From the NCBI GenBank assembly GCA_045660945.1, contig JAZRET010000067.1, positions 1-52,055 on the forward strand: a stretch of DNA of 52,055 nt, read 5' to 3'. The notes beneath the pieces are model-generated. The model made no database searches. It was not told the DNA's origin and worked only from the letters and a program-made list of their open reading frames with translations. Position numbers and translations under genes: made by a program. The DNA comes from Congzhengia sp. (GTDB taxonomy: Bacteria; Bacillota; Clostridia; UBA1381; UBA9506). Positions 1 to 52,055 of the stretch are shown one piece after another (within the stretch, counting starts at the first letter, position 1; each line of letters begins with the position of its first letter).

Positions 1-76
1 AGGGAAGAATACATTTACGAGATAATGAAAAGATACGGAAAACTCGATTAACACTGCTAAACAAAAGGAGACTAAA

Positions 77-211
77 ATGCAGACAAACATAAAACAAATG
101 ATTAAATACCTTACGGGCGGAAACAAGACTGAAATTGATACCCTGTGGCATTTATTATCTTTTGAAAAAGCGGCGATACGCCACGCGATTGTCGACATTA
201 CCAAAGGATAA
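77..211 (+). CDS. small hypothetical protein (44 aa, MQTNIKQ...)
   Basis: Open frame read by hand after the AAGGAGACTAAA RBS at 65-76; below the ORF track cutoff. Confidence 0.6.
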   Translation: MQTNIKQMIKYLTGGNKTEIDTLWHLLSFEKAAIRHAIVDITKG

Positions 212-214
212 ACT

Positions 215-499
215 ATGCCAGCACTTGTAATGACTAAAAATCTTCAGTTGTGGATGGTGGTTAAAATCTACAACGAAGGCGGTAGCGATGAACTTTCTGA
301 CGAACCTATGGCTGTATTCTTTGATGAACCCAGTGCAATAGATTACAGACAGAAGTTATACCGCAAAATGATTAACGAAGGTATCGAGTGGATTATAGAT
401 TGCCACGGTAGCGAACTAATGCCCGACTGGGATACCGATGACGTAGAATACTACTACGCAATTAAAAAAGGAAAACTTATGGAGCCAAACAATGATTAA
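215..499 (+). CDS. hypothetical early protein
   Basis: 94 aa acidic ORF, AAGGA RBS, packed between neighbours. Confidence 0.7.
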   Translation: MPALVMTKNLQLWMVVKIYNEGGSDELSDEPMAVFFDEPSAIDYRQKLYRKMINEGIEWIIDCHGSELMPDWDTDDVEYYYAIKKGKLMEPNND

Positions 500-1535
500 G
501 AAAACTATAAAAAAATACAGTGATTTAACTGATGTTGATGAAACTGTTTACGATAAAGAAAATAACACTTTGTGGGTGAGAAACCCATCGGTTGGAAACC
601 CAAGATTCGTAGCATACACTATTGAATCTGAGCAAATCTTAGATGGTTATACGGTCATAAATCCATTGAATAACACCCTGCGTGGATTAGGATTAAATTC
701 GCACTGGGGTATTTTCGGATACGGCGAATACCTTGAATGGATGAACAACCAAAGACGACCATTTGAAAGAAGTTTGCCAGACGAAAAAGACATAAAAATG
801 GCACTTAAACGACTTGAAAAATTCAAAACAGGGGACGGCTACGGCGCAACTGAAATTCAAATGGGCGTTGAATTGGAGCTCGAAGGGGATACAAAACAAC
901 CTATGACCGAATTGTTAAACGACTATATAGGGGCTAAAAAGCCGATTCAAGATGTTGGTTGCGATGGTTCTGTGTATGGTAGGGGAACAGAAATACGATT
1001 TAACCACCCGAAACTAACCGATTGGAAACTTGCTACTGTGCGTGATATTTTGCGTATAGCAAGAAAAAACGGTTGTGAGACAAAAGGTGGTTCAGCAGGG
1101 ATGCACGTCCACGTCTCACACCCAAAGGTTAAAATTGCGATTAACACATTCAAGAGCAACCTTGAGTTGATGCAAAAGATTTTGTATCCGATTAACTGTC
1201 GCCCACGAAAGAAAGTATTAAACGGAGAAGTTCGTGGTGATGTTTCCTACGGTGTTGGTGGGAATATATATCACGACCAAGGGGGGACATTTGGAACTTT
1301 GGAAATTCGTGCGTGGAATGCGACATTAAACCCACGGATGTTTATGGCGCGTGTAAGATTTTCGCGTTGGTTGGTAAATTATCTCACAAAAGATACGCAT
1401 CCAACTATGGCGAAGATTTTCAAAGCGATGGGGACACAAGCAAAACGCGACTATTTGTATATGTTGAATAGTAAAGAGAACCCACACCAATGGGGCGAAG
1501 ACCCAGAAAAGTTCAGAGCTCTGTTGGCAGCATAA
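492..1535 (+). CDS. putative amidoligase (COOH-NH2 ligase type 2 / Amidoligase_2-like)
   Basis: Motifs GVELELE, DGSV, EIRF, SAGMHVHVS and TLEIRAWNATLN match the phage amidoligase pattern. Confidence 0.8.
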   Translation: MIKKTIKKYSDLTDVDETVYDKENNTLWVRNPSVGNPRFVAYTIESEQILDGYTVINPLNNTLRGLGLNSHWGIFGYGEYLEWMNNQRRPFERSLPDEKDIKMALKRLEKFKTGDGYGATEIQMGVELELEGDTKQPMTELLNDYIGAKKPIQDVGCDGSVYGRGTEIRFNHPKLTDWKLATVRDILRIARKNGCETKGGSAGMHVHVSHPKVKIAINTFKSNLELMQKILYPINCRPRKKVLNGEVRGDVSYGVGGNIYHDQGGTFGTLEIRAWNATLNPRMFMARVRFSRWLVNYLTKDTHPTMAKIFKAMGTQAKRDYLYMLNSKENPHQWGEDPEKFRALLAA

Positions 1536-1556
1536 AGGAGACTAAAATGACTGTAA
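1527..1556 (+). repeat. 30-bp exact direct repeat (second copy at 51652-51681)
   Basis: GCAGCATAAAGGAGACTAAAATGACTGTAA at both sites. Confidence 0.85.
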
Positions 1557-2875
1557 GAATACGGTTTTCAAACGGTGATAAAGAAATCGCTGTTCCAGAT
1601 ACCTTCGTGACAGGTTTCGAGATATTGAAATATGTCATTGATAACAGGGAAGAATCTGTAGAAGATGCGAACAAACACACATTGAATTATGCGATTATTG
1701 ATGGAATTACATTTGGTGCAGAGACATACATTTGTGATTTCAAAGCGGTGGAATTCAATAACTGCGTATTCGATAACGCACGATTTCAGTATTCGACATT
1801 TTATGGATGTAAAGGCAAAGGGAATACATTTCATTATGAAGAAGATGCTGATATTTCGTGGATTGCGCGTGCAGGATTAAAAGGCAAAACAGTGACTAAA
1901 AAAGCACCACCAATTCTGACGCCAACCAACGAAGAAATTGCTGAGCGTTATAATGTGATTGTTACTGCGTTGCCAAACAAGTCGTTCGTGAAAATCAAAT
2001 GGACTTGTGCGTTCTGCCACAGGGATTTCACTGCGATTGCGCGCAGGGATAGGGTAGAAAAGGTGCTTACAAATCGAAAAGATGTGCCAAATTGTGCGAA
2101 AAAAGTATGCGAGCAATGTTTTAACACATACCGTTTGAGCGAAAAGTTCTATGGACACAGACATTACGGATATTCGGGTGCTGTCGCAAAGCATACGACA
2201 GATATGGATGCGAAAAATACTGTGTTGATCGGGCTAGAAATGGAATTTGAAGGCGATTTTACAGGCTGGAAAGAACTGGAAGATGCGCACAAAGGGCAAT
2301 TACACTACGGGTATGACAGTTCAGTTATAGGGCAAAATGAATTGTCTTGGGATTGCGGTTCGTATTCGTGGTGGAAATACTTGTCGAGCCTTAAAGATGT
2401 GTGTTCTGTTATTGAAAAAGGCAACGGACACGCAGGGGATTCGGCGGGAATACATATTCATATTTCGCGACCAGATGCAGATATTTACAGCGTCACAAAG
2501 ACAATAAATACTGCGTGCCGTAAAGGTGTTTGGAATGCGATTATGAAATCAGTGTCACTGCGTAATGATATGGAAAAGTTCAATCGTTATGCGAGTTTAA
2601 CTACAGAATGCGATGCACACCACGCGGCGATTTCATTTAATAGCCACGGAACTTGTGAGTTTCGTATATTCAACAGTTCGACAGATGCGACACTGATTCT
2701 GAAACAGATGAAGTTCTGCAAAGAAGTGTTCAATCTGTTCGCTGATGGTGAGTCTAATTACGACAAACTATCAAAAGAAAGCCTGCTGTTGATTAAAACC
2801 TGTGCAAAAACACAGCACGACAAAGGGTTTATAGACGACAGCGAGTATAACCTAATAACAACAAAAATAAAATAA
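1547..2875 (+). CDS. second putative amidoligase with N-terminal pentapeptide-repeat-like and Zn-ribbon segments
   Basis: GLEMEFE, YDSSV, SAGIHIHIS, TCEFRIFNSS; N-terminal DFKAVEFNNCVFDNARFQYSTF repeats and CAFC...CEQC; start reassigned to ATG 1547 after AAGGAGACTAAA. Confidence 0.78.
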   Translation: MTVRIRFSNGDKEIAVPDTFVTGFEILKYVIDNREESVEDANKHTLNYAIIDGITFGAETYICDFKAVEFNNCVFDNARFQYSTFYGCKGKGNTFHYEEDADISWIARAGLKGKTVTKKAPPILTPTNEEIAERYNVIVTALPNKSFVKIKWTCAFCHRDFTAIARRDRVEKVLTNRKDVPNCAKKVCEQCFNTYRLSEKFYGHRHYGYSGAVAKHTTDMDAKNTVLIGLEMEFEGDFTGWKELEDAHKGQLHYGYDSSVIGQNELSWDCGSYSWWKYLSSLKDVCSVIEKGNGHAGDSAGIHIHISRPDADIYSVTKTINTACRKGVWNAIMKSVSLRNDMEKFNRYASLTTECDAHHAAISFNSHGTCEFRIFNSSTDATLILKQMKFCKEVFNLFADGESNYDKLSKESLLLIKTCAKTQHDKGFIDDSEYNLITTKIK

Positions 2876-2888
2876 AGGAGACTAAACT

Positions 2889-4082
2889 ATGTGTGTTATT
2901 ATTGCTAAACCAAAGGGTGTCGACCCGTTAAAACGAGAATACTTTGAGAACGCGTGGGCGCACAATTCTCAAGGCGGTGGTGTTGTCTGGAAAGAAGACA
3001 ACGGCGAAGTGATGATGCAAAAAGGATTTATGGATAAAGATACCTTTTTGGCGAAACTTGACGAAATAAACCAAAAAGATACTGCGTTCATAGCGCATTT
3101 TAGGATAAAATCAGTTGGCGAAGTGAACCCTGAGAATACGCACCCGTTTGCGATGTCTCATGTGACGTTCGCCCATAATGGAACTATTAGTTCTATTAAG
3201 CCGATTGAAGGTAAAACAGATTCAGAGACGTTTGGTTTGTGGTTCTTGAAAGACCGTTCAATGAAATGGATTAAAGACAATTCATTATTGTTGGAATTGG
3301 CATTAGGAACGAGCAAGTTTGCGTTAATGGATAACAAGACAGGCGAAATACATATCTTGAATCGTGAATACGGACAAGAACGCGATGGCGCGTGGTTCTC
3401 AAACAGTTCTGCGTTCCCTTATGTCGCACCAAAGACGACTTCAAGTGCGTATTCTGGTGGGTATTGGAGAGGAAATACTTATTACAGTAGCCACTATGAT
3501 GACGATTATGATTGCCTTTCTTGTAACAGGGATAGTGTAATAAAAGCAAACAAACAGTTCGGGACAAAAGGTTATACACACGCATACGCAGAATACGATA
3601 ACGAACGCGGATGCTTTGTATATACCGCATCAAAGAGTCCTGTGTTCTGTGCGTATTTAAGTGGGGCTTTTGTTGAGAACCGCAGGGGCTTTTGGACACT
3701 TGATAAGAAATACCAACCGTTGGATTCTTTCAAGGATATGCCAAAAGAAATGAAACGACCCATCAACAAAGTGTTGGGGACATATACACAATATATGTGT
3801 AAATGTTTGCGTGAATATTACAGAGCGGATTTTGATTCGATTTTAGAACGGTCTGAAAACGAACAAGAGATTTCTGCGCTGTATTGTTTGTTGGATGTGT
3901 GCCGTAGATTGGTGCGTGCTGGTAAAACCATAAACGAAGATACATTGGACAAAATGTTATTGGAACGCGCACCTTCATACAACGCGGACAAATCTGCGTT
4001 CTTAATATACCTTGAAGGTTATGTGACAGATTTGCTTGACGACCTGTATCCAGAACGCAAAGCATTGATTTTGGCTGTGTAA
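2889..4082 (+). CDS. class II (Ntn) glutamine amidotransferase with C-terminal extension
   Basis: N-terminal MC nucleophile, HFR, NTHPF, HNG and TDSE motifs. Confidence 0.88.
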   Translation: MCVIIAKPKGVDPLKREYFENAWAHNSQGGGVVWKEDNGEVMMQKGFMDKDTFLAKLDEINQKDTAFIAHFRIKSVGEVNPENTHPFAMSHVTFAHNGTISSIKPIEGKTDSETFGLWFLKDRSMKWIKDNSLLLELALGTSKFALMDNKTGEIHILNREYGQERDGAWFSNSSAFPYVAPKTTSSAYSGGYWRGNTYYSSHYDDDYDCLSCNRDSVIKANKQFGTKGYTHAYAEYDNERGCFVYTASKSPVFCAYLSGAFVENRRGFWTLDKKYQPLDSFKDMPKEMKRPINKVLGTYTQYMCKCLREYYRADFDSILERSENEQEISALYCLLDVCRRLVRAGKTINEDTLDKMLLERAPSYNADKSAFLIYLEGYVTDLLDDLYPERKALILAV

Positions 4083-4163
4083 GTCGAAATACCCGATAAA
4101 ATAGTCTCCTATCGGGTATATGTGTAGGATGACAACCTGCGCACTGATGAGACAAGTCACATA
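4076..4163 (+). ncRNA. hammerhead ribozyme, type II
   Basis: GTC-GAAA (4083-4089); stem III 4089-4098/4110-4119; ATA cleavage triplet 4118-4120; stem I TGTGTAGG/CCTGCGCA; CTGATGA 4144-4150; GAC closes stem II; loop I TGAC can pair with GTCA at 4156-4159. Confidence 0.88.
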
Positions 4164-4186
4164 CTAAACAAAAAAAGGAGTAAAGT

Positions 4187-4639
4187 ATGAAAGTAATGAA
4201 AGGCATCTTGGTCAATCACACTGTCAAAACACCAGATTGTGCAGAACAACGCTTCTACACGACAACGGTTGAAGACGTTAAAAAAGACGACGTGTTCGCT
4301 GTGTGGGCGCACGGTAAATTGGCTTATTTTAAGGTCAAGGCAGTGATGGAAACTTATGAATACTTGCCGAGCGAAAATGCTGGTGTAAAGTTGGAAGATG
4401 TTTCCGTAGCATTGAACCGTATTGACTTTAAGGCATATACTGTGTCGAAGAAAGTCTTGGAAAAGACGAAACGCATCAGAGCGTGTATTGCGGAGCGTTT
4501 GGCTGAAGCGAAAGAATCTCAACAGATTGCTGAGCTTATTAAAACGGCAAACACGACTGAACGCAAAGCCGAAATTAAGGCTTTACAAGACCAACTTAAA
4601 GCGTTGGCTGAAAACCCAGAGTCAGTTCTGGAAGACTAA
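4187..4639 (+). CDS. hypothetical protein with coiled-coil C-terminus
   Basis: 150 aa ORF with AAGGAG RBS. Confidence 0.75.
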   Translation: MKVMKGILVNHTVKTPDCAEQRFYTTTVEDVKKDDVFAVWAHGKLAYFKVKAVMETYEYLPSENAGVKLEDVSVALNRIDFKAYTVSKKVLEKTKRIRACIAERLAEAKESQQIAELIKTANTTERKAEIKALQDQLKALAENPESVLED

Positions 4640-4640
4640 A

Positions 4641-4669
4641 AATAAGTCCCCCACAGGGGACTTTATTTT
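4641..4669 (+). terminator. probable intrinsic terminator
   Basis: AAGTCCCC-caca-GGGGACTT followed by TATTTT immediately after the stop codon. Confidence 0.65.
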
Positions 4670-4671
4670 GC

Positions 4672-4717
4672 GGTAGCATCGATTTCCTGTCATTAAAAAC
4701 CTTTAACGGTGCTACCA
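4672..4717 (+). ncRNA. hairpin RNA with anti-SD/anti-AUG loop
   Basis: 10-bp stem GGTAGCATCG/CGGTGCTACC plus A; the loop is the reverse complement of AAAGG-TTTTTA-ATG-ACA-GGA-AAT. Confidence 0.55.
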
Positions 4718-4736
4718 CATAATAAAGGAGACTAAA

Positions 4737-5117
4737 ATGTTTAGATGTAATATATATTTGGAAACACTAGATAAAAAGCGTTGGTATATTGACCAAACTT
4801 GCCGTTGCGAACGGGATTTGCATATAACAAAAGGATACGGATCGCCGTTCTATGTGCCAGTTGATATTGCCGACCAACCAAGATCGTCTTATACATTTTT
4901 AACGATGCGCAATATGATGCTAAACTGTATAAACACAGGACTAAAATTCTTAAAATGTCGAATAGATGATTTTAAGATTGATGTTCGCTCAGACGGTTAT
5001 ACGCATTTGGATAAAAAAGAACGGATGAGAATTAGCAGGTTTATAAAAAAAGAATTTGAAAGCATCAAAAATGATGTAAAGTTCATAAATAAAACACTGG
5101 GGGCGCAAAATGCTTAG
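4737..5117 (+). CDS. hypothetical protein
   Basis: ORF with AAGGAGACTAAA RBS. Confidence 0.75.
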   Translation: MFRCNIYLETLDKKRWYIDQTCRCERDLHITKGYGSPFYVPVDIADQPRSSYTFLTMRNMMLNCINTGLKFLKCRIDDFKIDVRSDGYTHLDKKERMRISRFIKKEFESIKNDVKFINKTLGAQNA

Positions 5118-5562
5118 GATTTGCTTTGCTATCGATACACTTGATAGGCACTACAGGTATTTAACGAGCCCTTCTTGTGCTATGCGACAAATGGAAATAG
5201 AAACATACAACATAAAAAACTACGATGAAAACTTTATCGAAAACAAACTTGTGTGGTATAGTTTCTACGATTTTGATTTAGAAGACGAAGATTTAATTCA
5301 ATTCTTCGACAAAGCGTGCATAAAAGAAGGACTTAAAATATTGCCAGTTCCAGTCGAGGCAATAAAACTTGACGAGGTTGTAGAAATCTTCAAAAGATTC
5401 GGACAGTTTTTAGCAAAACATAAAGAGTTTGAAGGAAAGATTCTGCCTTATCTGATAACAGAAGACGGAATTATGAAAGATGGGAAATACGGCTTGGTTC
5501 ATAATTCAACGGACACAAGCGAAAATACATCGGGCGGTATAACTACACCACCAACACGATAA
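5110..5562 (+). CDS. hypothetical protein
   Basis: 150 aa ORF overlapping the previous stop. Confidence 0.7.
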   Translation: MLRICFAIDTLDRHYRYLTSPSCAMRQMEIETYNIKNYDENFIENKLVWYSFYDFDLEDEDLIQFFDKACIKEGLKILPVPVEAIKLDEVVEIFKRFGQFLAKHKEFEGKILPYLITEDGIMKDGKYGLVHNSTDTSENTSGGITTPPTR

Positions 5563-5620
5563 ATCGCGTTGTATGGGCAAATAAATGCGTGTAATCGCTA
5601 TTTAACAAACGGAGGATGCT

Positions 5621-6049
5621 ATGCATATGGTATTTATACAGAAAAGAATCGATAAAAAGATAGTTTTTTGGACAACTAACCTTAAACCGACAGATAGTAT
5701 CAACAACGCGGCTCGCTACAACGGCTTTGATTCAATTTCTTCGGGTGATCTTAGTGTTATAAGAACTTGGATTCGTGACGAACACACTAGAGCAAACTTT
5801 AATGCCGTTATTGTTCCTGTTTGCGTAGACGAAGATACTGTCGAACCAAATGAACTTGGTGAGCCACAAGAACCAACAACAACTTGCAACCATTCTCTGA
5901 TGACAGAAAACATAAAGGCTTCTTTAAGAAGAGGTCTTCTGCCCGGATTCGATATAGCCAATTACATCGACTTTACAACAGATACAGACCTTGTTCGTAG
6001 AGTCCAAAAAATGGAAAAAGACAAATACGAAGAGCGCATTTCGTGGTAA
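5621..6049 (+). CDS. hypothetical protein
   Basis: 142 aa ORF with GGAGG RBS. Confidence 0.7.
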   Translation: MHMVFIQKRIDKKIVFWTTNLKPTDSINNAARYNGFDSISSGDLSVIRTWIRDEHTRANFNAVIVPVCVDEDTVEPNELGEPQEPTTTCNHSLMTENIKASLRRGLLPGFDIANYIDFTTDTDLVRRVQKMEKDKYEERISW

Positions 6050-6228
6050 TGCGCTCACGCGCGCGCACGCGTCTACAGAGTGTCCGTAAATTTATTTATT
6101 TATTTATTTAGGGATAAATAAATAAATTTACTCCTAGACCATTAAGAGACCAGATCCAAAGAAAGTCTAGAAAGATAAAAGAAAGAAATATATAAAGAAA
6201 GAAAAACGAAAGAAACGAAAGAAAGGTA
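6050..6228. other. candidate replication origin
   Basis: Non-coding; CG-alternating tract, AT-rich inverted repeat GTAAATTTATTTATTT/AAATAAATAAATTTAC and tandem AAAGAAAG / ACGAAAGAA repeats. Confidence 0.45.
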
Positions 6229-6242
6229 AGGAGACTAAAACG

Positions 6243-6815
6243 ATGGACAACGCAGTGAGATATATCAACAAGATATGTGAACTGTATAACCTTTCAGAGG
6301 ATACAAAAAAGACAATGTTAAAATACATAGACAAGGTTGTGAGGATGCTTGGCGATTTTACCTGGACGGAAATCGAGTCTGCTATCGCTTGGTATTACGC
6401 AAACCGTTCGCAGACCAAACAGCCACGACTTATTGAATTGAATTCGTGGTTGCGTGGCAGAAAGAAACCTGTTCAAAGACAGCCTGCCGAGGAACTGCCA
6501 CCAGCGAAACCTGCAACAGGTATTAGACAAATACAGGATTGTTTTTATACCGTTTGCAAGACTGCACACATACAGGGAATAGCGGGTGCTTACGGGTTTG
6601 AGTATTTTAATACCGTTGAAAAGTTGCCTACTGGCGACTCAGCCGCCATAATTGACAAGAACGGCGTCCCAACACTTGTCGTAAAACGATGGTTTTGGGA
6701 AGATGCTGTTAAACTTGCAAAAGAACAATACCCAGATAGGTTTGCACCGTTCAAAGGGATTACCTTTTGGGAGGAATGTGCGCTGGCTTACAAACTGGGT
6801 GTGCTACAACTATAA
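6243..6815 (+). CDS. hypothetical protein, possibly helicase loader/inhibitor-like
   Basis: N-terminal helical segment (LGDFTWTEIESAI...PRLIEL) reminiscent of phage P/G39P-like proteins; next to the candidate origin; function uncertain. Confidence 0.4.
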   Translation: MDNAVRYINKICELYNLSEDTKKTMLKYIDKVVRMLGDFTWTEIESAIAWYYANRSQTKQPRLIELNSWLRGRKKPVQRQPAEELPPAKPATGIRQIQDCFYTVCKTAHIQGIAGAYGFEYFNTVEKLPTGDSAAIIDKNGVPTLVVKRWFWEDAVKLAKEQYPDRFAPFKGITFWEECALAYKLGVLQL

Positions 6816-7510: not shown

Positions 7511-7586
7511 TGTCCAGTAGGTCAACGGTTTAGACCGACAATCTGATAAGTTGTAGACGCAAGTTCGACTCTTGCCTGGACAACCA
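7511..7586 (+). tRNA. tRNA-Ile(GAT)
   Basis: Acceptor TGTCCAG/CTGGACA-A-CCA; anticodon loop CTGATAA; canonical TTCGACT T loop. Confidence 0.93.
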
Positions 7587-7601
7587 ACTAAAGGATTAGT
7601 T

Positions 7602-8033
7602 ATGAAAGCGGATTATCTTTTTGTCCCACACACAAAGACAGGGCAAAGGCTACATAGAAAAATTGCGGAACAAAAGGTCGGAAGAAAACTTGAGTATAAC
7701 GAATGTGTGCACCATATAAACGGGGATAAACACGATAACCGACCAGAAAATCTTGCTATTACAACAAGATCTTCGCATAGCAGGGAACACGCAAAAGAAT
7801 ATTGGGCTAAAAAGACAAAACAAGAAAGAGTATTGTTAACAAAAAAACTTGTGGCTGAATCTTCAATAAAAAACAGAAGATGCGTTGCGTGTATAAACGA
7901 TAAAGGCGGTATTGTTAAAAAGTTTGATGCTATAAAAGATACTGCCGCTTGTGGTTTTGACCCACAACATGTATGTCAGTGCTGTAAGGGGCACAGGAAG
8001 ACACATAAAGGGTTCAAGTGGGTGTATGTATAA
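7602..8033 (+). CDS. HNH homing endonuclease with NUMOD1-like C-terminal DNA-binding domain
   Basis: HRKIAE...VHHINGDKHDNRPENL...H..EH; C-terminal CCKG..KTHKGFKW; start ATG 7602 after AAGGA. Confidence 0.88.
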   Translation: MKADYLFVPHTKTGQRLHRKIAEQKVGRKLEYNECVHHINGDKHDNRPENLAITTRSSHSREHAKEYWAKKTKQERVLLTKKLVAESSIKNRRCVACINDKGGIVKKFDAIKDTAACGFDPQHVCQCCKGHRKTHKGFKWVYV

Positions 8034-8222: not shown

Positions 8223-8296
8223 GCAACGGTAGTTAAATAGTATAATATATCCTTGCCAAGGATAAGTTCTCGGAGCGTAACCGGGTCGTTGCACCA
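8223..8296 (+). tRNA. tRNA-Gly(GCC), non-canonical T loop
   Basis: Acceptor GCAACGG/TCGTTGC-A-CCA; anticodon arm TATCC-TTGCCAA-GGATA; T loop AGCGTAA. Confidence 0.85.
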
Positions 8297-8314: not shown

Positions 8315-8803
8315 ATGATTTGTCGTTGTCCAAAATGTAAAAAAGAGTTTAATAATACTACTAACAGAACCTTTTGTTCTAGGCGATGCGCAAACTCTAG
8401 GGTTGTCTCAACGGAGACAAAAAAGAAGATAGGATTGGCATTACACGACAAATATAAAGAACCTACTTTTAGGGGTGCTATTGAAAAAGCACGCGAGAGG
8501 GCATTAAACAAGGTGCGTTGTAACAGATTGATGCGAAAGGTTAAAGCGAAAAACGGTCAAGAATTAGACATAACAAATAAAGACTTAGAAGAATACCGAA
8601 AAACACATTTTGTTTGTGAAATCTGCGGTAAAGCAGAAAGAGCAACTCATAATAAAAAGAGTATATCTAAGTTATGCTGTGACCACGACCATACAACATC
8701 TAAGTTTAGGGGACTTTTGTGTTCAAATTGTAATAGGAAACTTGGTTGGTATGAAACATACACAACACAAATAAGAGAATACCTACGAAGGGGCAAATTA
8801 TGA
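8315..8803 (+). CDS. endonuclease VII-domain homing-type endonuclease
   Basis: CEIC...DHDH.T.KFRGLLCSNCNRKLG; N-terminal Zn finger and SxETKKKI (NUMOD3-like) segment. Confidence 0.82.
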   Translation: MICRCPKCKKEFNNTTNRTFCSRRCANSRVVSTETKKKIGLALHDKYKEPTFRGAIEKARERALNKVRCNRLMRKVKAKNGQELDITNKDLEEYRKTHFVCEICGKAERATHNKKSISKLCCDHDHTTSKFRGLLCSNCNRKLGWYETYTTQIREYLRRGKL

Positions 8804-49591: not shown

Positions 49592-49880
49592 CTCTTGAAC
49601 ACCTTTATTCTTACATATATAACATCCTACATGTCTTTTACGCATTCGTCAACTAACCAACCCATACCCACCCCCCCCCATGGATGAGAAATTAGAATCG
49701 CCACCCACGCAAAAAGAATTCTTTTTTGGCGGAAATCCGCGGGTTTTAGCGTGTCGACCGAATCGCTAACGAAAAGTGAACTAGACGGTAACAATCGGTT
49801 TCGATTTGTATAATAATATATAATGTAGCAAGGCAAGGTTGCCAAGTTATAAAAGAAAAATAAAACAATAGGAGTCAAAT

Positions 49881-50652: not shown

Positions 50653-50681
50653 ACTTTATAGCAACGGAAGGAGACTAAACT

Positions 50682-50990
50682 ATGTTTGGCAAGGTGATTT
50701 GTGTGCCTCACACAAGGGGTGGATACCTAGATTTTTGGGGATTTATTAAAGACGACGGGCGACCATTGACTAACGGTGCGTTTAGGACGATTGTCCATAC
50801 GCGTCAAGAGACTTTTATGGACGACTTAAAAAAGATTTTGAGTCAACGCAAGCGTGATTTAATGACTGAATACTACAAGTCGATGAAGGCGACTGCGGCG
50901 CGGAGATGGTATGGTGCGACTAAGGCATTATACGATGCGATGCGTGACACTGAGATTGAATCAAAGATTGAACACACTACGGATTTATAA
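50682..50990 (+). CDS. hypothetical early protein
   Basis: AAGGAGACTAAAC RBS. Confidence 0.7.
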   Translation: MFGKVICVPHTRGGYLDFWGFIKDDGRPLTNGAFRTIVHTRQETFMDDLKKILSQRKRDLMTEYYKSMKATAARRWYGATKALYDAMRDTEIESKIEHTTDL

Positions 50991-51001
50991 AGGAGACTAC
51001 T

Positions 51002-51301
51002 ATGAGCAGAACTACGGCGATTAAAGCATACAACGGTAAAAGATTATTTAAGGATTATACGAGACGGTCAACTATGAAATACGACCCTGCTACTGTGACA
51101 TTTGAACAGGCGATTACGGACATTGACACAAGTTGGAACGAAAACGGACTACTGACGCGCCTTGATAGGGTGTTAGCATTAGCGAAAAAGGGCTACGATG
51201 AGAAGCGAGTTAAAGACCAACTTAAAGAGTGGATTACAGACTTTTGTCCTTGGAAAGATTTACAGCGTGAGTTATTGCGTGCGTATATACCGACAAAGTA
51301 A
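51002..51301 (+). CDS. hypothetical early protein
   Basis: AAGGAGACTAC RBS. Confidence 0.7.
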   Translation: MSRTTAIKAYNGKRLFKDYTRRSTMKYDPATVTFEQAITDIDTSWNENGLLTRLDRVLALAKKGYDEKRVKDQLKEWITDFCPWKDLQRELLRAYIPTK

Positions 51302-51329
51302 GACAACTATGGAAAGGAAGGAGACTAAA

Positions 51330-51422
51330 ATGTTGAAATTACTACAAGATTTAATTGACGAATACAAAGCAGACAGATTCATACGGAAAAGATTAAAGGC
51401 ATTACGACCAGTGATGAAATAG
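51330..51422 (+). CDS. small early peptide (30 aa)
   Basis: AAGGAGACTAAA RBS. Confidence 0.55.
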   Translation: MLKLLQDLIDEYKADRFIRKRLKALRPVMK

Positions 51423-51430
51423 AACGGATA

Positions 51431-51531
51431 TCGGATATTACGGTATCCGACATCGGTTTTACCGATGGACTCCTTGGTTGATGTGTTGCTACCGATGCCT
51501 GTTCCTATTGGGGCATCGGCAACGACATAAC
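51431..51531 (+). ncRNA. three-hairpin RNA with unpaired anti-SD GACTCCTT
   Basis: TCGGATAT-tacg-GTATCCGA, CATCGGT-ttt-ACCGATG, then GACTCCTT, then a long GGTT...AACC hairpin. Confidence 0.5.
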
Positions 51532-51567
51532 CCGCATAAAGGGGGGATAAAATGTAAAGGATGTAAA

Positions 51568-51660
51568 ATGAAATACATTTATAAATTGTTAGGGATACAC
51601 GGCTCTACTTATTATAGAGTGAACAAAAGATGGATTTTGATAAGCAACCCAGCAGCATAA
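51568..51660 (+). CDS. small early peptide (30 aa)
   Basis: AAGGA RBS before ATG 51568. Confidence 0.45.
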   Translation: MKYIYKLLGIHGSTYYRVNKRWILISNPAA

Positions 51661-51671
51661 AGGAGACTAAA

Positions 51672-51854
51672 ATGACTGTAAAACAACTGATTGATGCACT
51701 GAATAAAATATCGCCAAGTGCTACTGTTTATACAGAAGACGGCGAAGGTCACGACTACTGTGTAGTAAACGAAATTGATTTTTCGGCTAAGATTACGGAA
51801 CAGACAGAAACAACACGCGTTGTGTTGCGATGGAAATACGAAAAGGATGTATGA
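51672..51854 (+). CDS. hypothetical early protein
   Basis: AAGGAGACTAAA RBS; MTVKQLIDAL.K....A.V motif common in small phage proteins. Confidence 0.7.
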   Translation: MTVKQLIDALNKISPSATVYTEDGEGHDYCVVNEIDFSAKITEQTETTRVVLRWKYEKDV

Positions 51855-52021
51855 TGAAAGAAAAACTATTTAAGTTTAAGGTGAGCAGTATTCAATACGG
51901 CGAGTTGCTTCGTTACGAACTAGCCGCGATAAAATTCATTATTGGCGACTACGAAATTGTGAAGAAACGCAATTGCCCAATGGGATTCGATATGAAAATT
52001 TGGTGCAGAAAGAAAGACTAA
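51851..52021 (+). CDS. hypothetical early protein
   Basis: ATGA overlap, AAGGA RBS. Confidence 0.55.
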   Translation: MMKEKLFKFKVSSIQYGELLRYELAAIKFIIGDYEIVKKRNCPMGFDMKIWCRKKD

Positions 52022-52055
52022 GTCGGAGGCCAAGCGGTCTTAGGAAGACAACATG

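What the first reader, a model, noticed from the sequence alone, without database searches (positions are those of the whole stretch)
4076..4163. Type II hammerhead ribozyme whose stem III loop is antisense to the phage's own early-gene RBS
Seen: a complete hammerhead core (GAAA 4086-4089, AUA cleavage triplet ending at 4120, CUGAUGA 4144-4150, stems I-III, loop I UGAC able to pair with GUCA) overlaps the GATase stop codon. The stem III loop region reads UAGUCUCCU (4102-4110), the exact complement of AGGAGACUA, the RBS motif in front of nine early genes including amidoligase 2 and the GATase just upstream. Established: hammerhead core consensus and type II topology. Inference: self-cleavage leaves the upstream RNA ending in a stable hairpin that displays an anti-RBS loop, which could act as a ribozyme-released translational timer for the early regulon. 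I know of no described system of this form.
Basis: partly seen in the sequence, partly recalled or inferred. Interest (0 to 1): 0.92.

Follow-up and report, generated by a model that had tools for sequence, protein, structure and literature searches.

The report
Hammerhead ribozyme carrying anti-ribosome-site loop
A phage carries a conserved hammerhead RNA, predicted to cut itself, between two early genes, and in this lineage one of its loops is the exact complement of a ribosome-binding tag found before nine early genes, so it likely also damps their translation, though neither cutting nor repression has been tested.

Summary
Observation confirmed. Window 4083-4159 is a canonical type II hammerhead with a loop I/3'-tail pseudoknot, kept after the GATase stop in all 9 related phages examined, with strong covariation. 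That part is a known kind: phage intergenic type II hammerheads are common (268 collected).

AGGAGACTA precedes nine early start codons; its single reverse copy lies in the 11-nt stem III loop, the longest among the 268 (chance about 2e-4 or less). Loop and tag occur together in the window and one sister phage; eight other lineages lack the loop and have no dominant tag. That is one evolutionary event, not covariation.

Cluster K mycobacteriophages have a published, unexplained analogue: many start-associated tags plus one reverse copy. I found that copy in a hairpin's apical loop.

The loop is exposed before and after cleavage, so 'ribozyme-released timer' is unsupported. Best reading, about 50%: an ordinary mRNA-processing ribozyme with a grafted anti-tag loop that damps early translation. 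The scan noted similar anti-RBS loops on other phage DNA.

The parts
4083..4159 (+). Type II hammerhead ribozyme (core, stems I-III, loop I/3'-tail pseudoknot); predicted cleavage between A4120 and U4121
4089..4119 (+). Stem III hairpin (10 bp, 11-nt loop 4099-4109); would form the 3' end of the upstream cleavage product
4102..4110 (+). Anti-tag sequence UAGUCUCCU, the only reverse copy of AGGAGACTA in the contig; 8 of 9 bases unpaired
4130..4133 (+). Loop I pseudoknot strand UGAC
4156..4159 (+). 3'-tail pseudoknot strand GUCA
2889..4082 (+). Class II glutamine amidotransferase gene (397 aa; PF13230); its stop codon ends 3 nt before GAAA
1547..2875 (+). Amidoligase-2-like gene (442 aa from the tagged ATG; PF12224)
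4187..4639 (+). Conserved 150-aa gene at the head of the downstream product; untagged RBS (AGGAGTAAAG); beta-barrel plus coiled coil, weak PriA 3'-binding-domain likeness
4644..4663 (+). Intrinsic-terminator-like hairpin after the 150-aa gene
66..74 (+). AGGAGACTA tag before ATG 77
1536..1544 (+). AGGAGACTA tag before the amidoligase-2 ATG 1547
2876..2884 (+). AGGAGACTA tag before the GATase ATG 2889
4726..4734 (+). AGGAGACTA tag before ATG 4737
6229..6237 (+). AGGAGACTA tag before ATG 6243
50669..50677 (+). AGGAGACTA tag before ATG 50682
50991..50999 (+). AGGAGACTA tag before ATG 51002
51319..51327 (+). AGGAGACTA tag before ATG 51330
51661..51669 (+). AGGAGACTA tag before ATG 51672

Best explanation
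This is a conserved phage type II hammerhead, predicted to cut the early transcript just after the GATase stop codon, whose stem III loop in this lineage is the exact complement of the tag before nine early genes and likely damps their translation by covering the Shine-Dalgarno sequence. Shown: the core, stems and pseudoknot, their covariation, the nine tags, the single reverse copy in an open loop, and the joint presence of tag and loop in one lineage. Inferred: cleavage at 4120/4121 would release a single-gene mRNA (4121 to the terminator near 4665) for the 150-aa protein, whose own RBS pairs with the loop over only 5 bp and so would escape. The loop would stay on the 3' end of the upstream message, where it could fold back on, or pair in trans with, tagged RBSs (9 bp, about -14 kcal/mol before loop strain). 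Stem III is peripheral and free to vary, so it would be a tolerated place to graft such a module. Cleavage is not needed to expose the loop. Any delay would come from the loop being transcribed several kilobases after the first tagged genes, not from the cleavage rate.
For: Ribozyme: 93% of cells paired, 14 of 20 pairs with two-sided changes, 0/500 shuffles as high, slid controls 28-43% (10 sequences); core-flanking pairs intact in 10 of 10. Generic processing layout: 214 of 258 phage type II hammerheads have an upstream ORF stop within 20 nt (random positions 8.5%); median cleavage-to-start 60 nt, here 66. Loop: 248 of 268 stem III terminal loops are 3-6 nt; the only two of 11 nt are this window and its sister, and they give the two longest loop/own-RBS complements (9 and 10 nt; next 7). 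Chance of the match 1.6e-5 to 3e-4, 2.2e-4 allowing any 9-mer shared by 5 or more tags. The nine best + strand duplex sites are the nine tags; the downstream gene's RBS gives -6.3. Sister phage: 4 differences in 4083-4165, namely one compensatory stem pair and two loop bases outside the match, none in the 8 matching loop bases; the changes lengthen pairing to 10-11 bp. The tag is dominant only where the loop is: 9 and 4 copies, against at most 3 copies of any AGGAG 9-mer in the sequence held for eight other lineages. Independent parallel: Cluster K1 mycobacteriophages have many SAS tags and one reverse copy of unknown role (PMC3203893); in both genomes I checked it fills the apical loop of a long intergenic hairpin (P unpaired >=0.99 over 8 nt).
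Against: Only one evolutionary event: 8 of 9 relatives have unrelated 3-7-nt loops. L012 has the tag twice with no antisense copy in its whole record. Loop conservation in the sister is not significant (Fisher p=0.055; P(0 of 8 changed) 0.43 to 0.008 depending on background rate). Tags erode in the sister: of 9 orthologous sites 3 are identical, 3 are kept by G-U, 2 are weakened and 1 is lost; A-to-G changes are expected anyway. An unrelated 74-kb phage has the same stem III twice, with 5-nt loops that are exact inversions of each other and not antisense to its own repeated RBS, so loops in this stem can flip neutrally. A targeted IMG/VR scan for this anti-tag inside a type II hammerhead gave 9 hits, of which only the two sister-phage records were hammerheads. 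The best single duplex is not exceptional against about 1,200 foreign RBS regions (p=0.14); the signal is the number of matched sites, which are not independent. Pairing cannot extend into the stem, one loop faces up to nine targets, and no Hfq over cut-off was found in 21 genomes of the assembly's genus.
Confidence: 0.5

Rival explanations
1. The ribozyme is an ordinary processing element and the anti-tag loop is a neutral relic: a fragment holding the phage's commonest intergenic motif was captured in stem III and flipped by hairpin-loop inversion, and has not yet decayed.
For: Eight of nine relatives do without it. Loop inversion in this very stem is seen between two copies in one phage. 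Conservation in the sister is not significant, and three further strains read from contigs show no listed loop difference while the GATase 3' end is diverged, which looks like recent recombination rather than an independent test. A 12-nt match of the same loop to a late gene's coding region shows that long matches occur: 1.8% of random 12-mers have a second copy, and this one is absent from the sister.
Against: The captured piece is precisely the tag, and sits in the only 11-nt loop among 268 hammerheads. The sister's changes spare the match and extend it. The same one-reverse-copy-in-a-loop layout occurs in unrelated Cluster K1 phages.
Confidence: 0.33
2. The loop does pair with tagged RNA but for another purpose: as an allosteric input to the ribozyme (loop GUCUC could pair with core GAGAC and be released by tagged RNA), as a helper of tagged-gene translation or decay, or as a DNA-level inverted-repeat site.
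For: GUCUC 4104-4108 is complementary to GAGAC 4149-4153. The hammerhead fold is not the minimum-energy fold without its pseudoknot; a hairpin over the GATase stop competes for the GAA core (P 0.48-0.77), so cleavage could be conditional. Pope et al. leave the role of SAS open.
Against: The loop-core pairing is only 5 bp and could not be scored (pseudoknot). The competing hairpin is weaker in the sister. Pairing over a Shine-Dalgarno represses in the precedents read (icaR, 6C RNA abstracts).
Confidence: 0.1
3. One reading: cleavage releases or activates the anti-RBS hairpin and so times the shut-off of the early regulon.
For: Cleavage would put the hairpin at the 3' end of the upstream RNA, which could stabilise it or free it from the downstream message.
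Against: The loop is predicted open in both precursor and product. The ribozyme is kept in eight lineages with no such loop. Pseudoknotted type II hammerheads are described as high-speed (PMC3088659).
Confidence: 0.07

Closest known systems
Type II hammerhead ribozymes with a loop I/3'-tail pseudoknot flanking genes in phages and prophages (Perreault et al. 2011, PMC3088659; passages and Discussion part 1 read)
   Same: Topology, full core consensus, 4-bp pseudoknot, intergenic position in a phage operon; proposed role in cutting long phage transcripts into gene- or operon-length mRNAs.
   Different: An 11-nt stem III loop complementary to the phage's own RBS tag; nothing like it in the passages read, nor in 266 other hammerheads collected here.
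Start-associated sequences (SAS) of Cluster K mycobacteriophages (Pope et al. 2011, PMC3203893; passages read)
   Same: Repeated asymmetric AGGAG-containing tag just before start codons of non-structural genes, longer than 16S pairing explains, rare in the host, one orientation except for a single reverse copy away from any gene start; that copy is in a hairpin loop (my).
   Different: Different sequence (9-11 nt versus 13 nt), unrelated phage; in K1 phages the reverse copy is in a stand-alone hairpin, not in a ribozyme. Analogy, not homology; function unproven there too.
icaR mRNA 3'-UTR/Shine-Dalgarno pairing in Staphylococcus aureus (PMC3868564; abstract and author summary read)
   Same: A short anti-SD motif at the 3' end of an mRNA pairs with an RBS of the same mRNA and blocks initiation.
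   Different: One chromosomal gene, extended pairing and RNase III cleavage; here nine targets, 9 bp, and a ribozyme-made 3' end.
P4 CI RNA (as described in PMC4825925, passage read); P1 C4 RNA (recalled)
   Same: An RNA element processed out of an early phage transcript that pairs with sites on the same transcript.
   Different: CI is a discrete small RNA that pairs at two sites and causes termination; here no discrete small RNA is shown, pairing is single-site, and processing is by self-cleavage.
C-rich-loop sRNAs such as mycobacterial 6C RNA (PMC6486639; abstract read)
   Same: Hairpin loops pair with several mRNAs without Hfq or ProQ.
   Different: Independent sRNA with G-C-rich pairing; not part of a ribozyme and not matched to a phage-specific tag.

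Membership tests
Type II hammerhead ribozyme | Core consensus C3 U4 G5 A6 N7 G8 A9, G12 A13 A14, A15.1-U16.1, H17 | tested here: met
   CUGAUGA 4144-4150, GAAA 4086-4089, U4119, A4120
Type II hammerhead ribozyme | Stems I and III closed by loops, stem II open; no mispair next to the core | tested here: met
   core-flanking pairs intact in 10 of 10 sequences
Type II hammerhead ribozyme | Pseudoknot of about 4 bp between loop I and the 3' tail | tested here: met
   UGAC/GUCA; 2 of 4 pairs change on both sides across relatives, 80% of cells paired
Type II hammerhead ribozyme | Structure conserved by covariation | tested here: met
   14 of 20 pairs with two-sided change, 0/500 shuffles
Type II hammerhead ribozyme | Match to an Rfam hammerhead model | tested here: not met
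   No hammerhead hit at gathering threshold in the window or in L006, L008, L012, L027, nor at E<=10 on 3900-4400. The miss also covers relatives with short stem III, so I read it as a limit of the models; the class is defined by its core, which is met.
Type II hammerhead ribozyme | Mg-dependent self-cleavage after H17 | not testable with these tools
   No assay; assembled RNA contigs cannot show ends
Start-associated sequence (SAS)-like tag | Repeated asymmetric motif with AGGAG a few bases before start codons | tested here: met
   9 of 9 + strand copies precede an ATG by 2-4 nt
Start-associated sequence (SAS)-like tag | Confined to non-structural genes; rare in the host genome | tested here: met
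   All in 50669-52055 and 1-6237, none before minus-strand structural genes; 3 copies in the other 1.73 Mb of the assembly, which may or may not be the true host
Start-associated sequence (SAS)-like tag | Conserved bases beyond 16S rRNA complementarity | tested here: met
   16S 3' end is canonical in 2 genomes of the assembly's genus, pairing AAGGAG but not ACUA; host assignment assumed
Start-associated sequence (SAS)-like tag | Single reverse copy not at a gene start | tested here: met
   4102-4110 only; the same in the sister record, 4 sense plus 1 reverse
Cluster K SAS proper | 13-bp Cluster K consensus | tested here: not met
   Different motif; not filed as a member, only as an analogue
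Cluster K SAS proper | Extended SAS inverted repeats upstream of about half the tags | not tested
   Not searched
Processed phage antisense RNA (P4 CI type) | Discrete stable small RNA | not testable with these tools
   Only assembled contigs were available
Processed phage antisense RNA (P4 CI type) | Two-site or extended pairing with the target | tested here: not met
   Single 9-bp helix; the stem is not complementary to the targets
Anti-SD regulator (icaR 3'-UTR or 6C type) | Pairing over the SD lowers translation | not testable with these tools
   Only duplex and opening energies were computed

The most novel reading that the evidence does not exclude
Phages use a recurring two-part code for early-gene translation: a private tag in the RBS of many early genes and one antisense copy displayed in a hairpin loop that silences them as a group. 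This lineage has built the anti-tag into a self-cleaving ribozyme, giving one RNA that both cuts the operon and regulates its upstream part. The same logic would explain the unexplained single reverse SAS of Cluster K mycobacteriophages.
Probability: 0.42. Interest if true: 0.82.

Novelty: new variant of a known kind. Interest (0 to 1): 0.6.

Why it matters
The biological role of bacterial and phage self-cleaving ribozymes is described as largely unresolved (PMC6765202), and the role of start-associated sequences has been open since 2011 (PMC3203893). If the loop represses, this is a natural ribozyme doubling as a multi-target antisense regulator, and it gives a direct test of what SAS-type tags are for, including in culturable Cluster K1 phages. 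If the loop is inert, the locus is still a well-supported phage type II hammerhead that Rfam misses, ordinary in kind.

Tried and rejected
Rfam found no hammerhead.

RNA runs: contigs from 5 RNA runs in 4 studies lay only within 4130-4652, over the downstream gene; none covered the GATase or the stem III loop, apart from one unrelated 47-nt piece. The contig starts differ (4130, 4149, 4170, 4175, 4210), and contigs cannot show ends, strand or level, so I use this neither as proof of cleavage nor as evidence that the loop-bearing RNA is absent.

An antisense gene using the reverse tag as its own RBS was rejected: no start codon follows it in the window. A non-canonical 16S tail explaining the tag was rejected. 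The 12-nt loop match in a holin-like late gene was rejected as chance. No + strand sigma-70-like site was found near 4121, but the scan is weak: 10 found, 19 expected.

Family-wide test of long-loop intergenic hairpins against own RBS regions: 4 of 25 sense-strand loops versus 1 of 26 antisense-strand loops at p<0.05 (one of the four is the sister's hammerhead loop). Suggestive only; the first version had too small a null.

More relatives were sought without success: IMG/VR with the downstream protein gave the same 7 records; GenBank phages none; 239 genomes of the order and 400 of the class only the own assembly (one genome unscored). DNA for the 56-82% GATase relatives (P0002-P0007) could not be obtained, so the decisive covariation test is open. 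One search used a mis-registered structure string and is void; one search is the valid count. No covariance model was built. Distant GATase loci (L013-L017, L026, own contig C41) showed no hammerhead after the gene; L019 and L025 end before the site and were left out.

Literature: searches listed no natural hammerhead with an anti-RBS loop; most subscription papers and all supplements were not seen.

Full report
Setting. The window is a whole 52,055-nt contig (C67) of a 1.78-Mb metagenome assembly. It is a tailed phage, with terminase and major head protein on the minus strand and small early genes on the plus strand at both ends; the sister record L006 carries the orthologues of the window's last and first genes in one run. 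Near-identical DNA is held by gut and bovine-gut runs. The only named genome record with a full-length relative is an uncultured alphaproteobacterial assembly. The host is assumed, not shown.

The observation. The region folds better than all 200 shuffles (z -3.6). The ribozyme starts right after the GATase stop. Rfam gives no hammerhead hit. AGGAGACTA occurs nine times on the plus strand, each just before an ATG, and once in reverse at 4102-4110; the rest of the assembly has 3 copies in 1.73 Mb.

The ribozyme is real and of a known kind. Searches with an 88-sequence GATase alignment gave nine related phages with DNA past the stop codon: L006 (with duplicates L007, L018), L008, L009, L010, L011, L012, L021, L023, L027. 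All nine have a type II hammerhead between the GATase and the same downstream gene. On the 10-sequence alignment 93% of cells pair, 14 of 20 pairs change on both sides, and no shuffle of 500 reaches this. Of 258 with enough upstream sequence, 214 follow an ORF stop within 20 nt. Perreault et al. 2011 describe this architecture, its pseudoknot and its position around prophage genes, and propose processing into gene- or operon-length mRNAs (PMC3088659, passages and Discussion part 1). Here cleavage at 4121 and a terminator-like hairpin at 4644-4663 would bracket one 150-aa gene. Contigs from RNA libraries of four studies cover that gene, the longest from 4130 to 4652, while DNA contigs run across 4121; this fits the model, but contigs cannot show ends or levels. 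The protein has no named family; its model shows a small beta-barrel and a coiled coil with weak likeness to the PriA 3'-binding domain (Foldseek E 0.08).

The loop is an outlier. Stem III terminal loops are 3-6 nt in 248 of 268 hammerheads. The only two of 11 nt are this one and the sister's, and they give the longest complements to their own RBS regions. The chance of such a match is 1.6e-5 to 3e-4 by composition and 2.2e-4 with a looser target definition. The loop pairs with each tag at -13.7 to -13.9 kcal/mol, tag opening costs are 0.4-2.2, and the downstream gene's RBS gives only -6.3. ACUA is not explained by 16S pairing in the assembly's genus. The sister phage (GATase 96% identical) differs at four places in 4083-4165: one compensatory pair and two loop bases outside the match, which lengthen pairing to 10-11 bp.

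Limits. Eight of nine relatives have short unrelated loops. They also lack a dominant tag in the 6.5-25 kb held for each, except L012 with two copies and no reverse copy in its record. Tag and loop therefore arose together once, which is not covariation. Loop conservation in the sister is not significant (p=0.055), and 3 of 9 orthologous tags there are weakened or lost. An unrelated phage has the same stem III twice with 5-nt loops that are inversions of each other and do not match its repeated RBS, which offers a neutral route to a reversed motif. No other phage in IMG/VR showed this anti-tag in a hammerhead. The loop is predicted open both before and after cleavage, so the ribozyme does not release it.

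An independent parallel. Earlier scan notes (unchecked AI notes, used as leads) report anti-RBS loops in other phages, two of them with hammerheads, and pointed to Cluster K mycobacteriophages. Pope et al. 2011 describe 11-19 start-associated sequences per genome, containing AGGAG, confined to non-structural genes, and with a single reverse copy in four K1 phages; they leave the function open (PMC3203893, passages). I fetched the right arms of Anaya and CrimD. In both, the one reverse copy found forms the apical loop of a long intergenic hairpin, with the loop unchanged and the stem varying. These two phages are close kin, so this is one further case. Within the present family, some relatives carry other long-looped hairpins with 15-bp matches to one of their own RBS regions, but the family-wide excess is only suggestive.

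Mechanism. Most likely the hammerhead cuts the early transcript as in its relatives (inferred from family knowledge, about 90%). The lengthened stem III loop likely pairs with tagged RBSs and lowers their translation, while the untagged downstream gene escapes (inferred, about 50%). Precedents for the second step are the icaR 3'-UTR/SD pairing (PMC3868564, abstract), chaperone-independent loop pairing by 6C RNA (PMC6486639, abstract) and P4 CI RNA processed from the transcript it controls (PMC4825925, passage). The main rival is a neutral captured and inverted motif (about one third). The strict 'cleavage-released timer' is unlikely.

Novelty and verdict. The ribozyme is a new member of a known kind; the anti-tag loop inside it is a new variant. 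My paper searches listed no natural example, within a library that lacks most subscription papers; supplements were not read. The review PMC6765202 (passages) calls the roles of bacterial self-cleaving ribozymes largely elusive. Interest 0.6: observation solid, function untested, and the link to the open SAS question makes it directly testable.

Noticed in passing
window 51423-51530 (hairpin 51485-51525); L006 about 6366-6406: Structured intergenic block (z -4.9 for 51420-51680) with a long hairpin identical in the sister phage. Its 10-nt loop can pair over 10 bp (with G-U) with the RBS regions near 49866-49875 and before gene 46433; not significant against foreign RBS regions (p 0.14). No Rfam hit.
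   Followed up: partly
L006 6308-6336; L011 6007-6039: Long-looped intergenic hairpins whose loops form 15-bp helices (13-14 Watson-Crick pairs) with one own RBS: the endonuclease VII-like gene in L006, an 84-aa gene 1.35 kb upstream in L011. The window's orthologous hairpin lacks the long loop.
   Followed up: partly
L021 about 3110-3175; L027 about 5640-5705: Downstream of the 150-aa gene, a strong hairpin whose loop is complementary over 12 nt to a segment about 25 nt upstream, with a compensatory change between the two phages: a likely pseudoknot or switch of no named family.
   Followed up: partly
L268 5001-5062 and 8541-8601: Unrelated 74-kb phage with two type II hammerheads that share the window's stem III; their 5-nt loops are exact inversions of each other. 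It has its own repeated RBS before at least 7 genes.
   Followed up: partly
L288 29871-29883; L289 13836-13848: The single reverse SAS of mycobacteriophages Anaya and CrimD lies in the apical loop of a long intergenic hairpin, just after another strong hairpin, near the end of the right arm.
   Followed up: yes
L008 8255-8430: About 180 nt of structured non-coding sequence between the GATase stop and the hammerhead, absent from the other relatives; no Rfam hit.
   Followed up: no
L009 11099-11160: Hammerhead variant with an extra A between A9 and G10.1.
   Followed up: no
G000:C41 7823-8896: A second phage-like contig in the same assembly encodes a GATase relative with no hammerhead after it.
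   Followed up: partly
L277 and L279, just after the 16S rRNA end: The pre-16S trailer in two genomes of the assembly's genus begins with AAGGAGAC, matching 8-9 nt of the phage tag; probably a coincidence of the anti-SD hairpin.
   Followed up: no
window 7511-7583, 8223-8293, 7572-8033, 8315-8803: Two tRNA genes, each followed by a nuclease gene (HNH_3 with NUMOD-like domain; endonuclease VII).
   Followed up: no
L045, L065, L085, L193-L196, L201-L203: Phage loci with 4-8 type II hammerheads within a few kilobases, typically between a stop codon and the next RBS; none was tested against Rfam.
   Followed up: no
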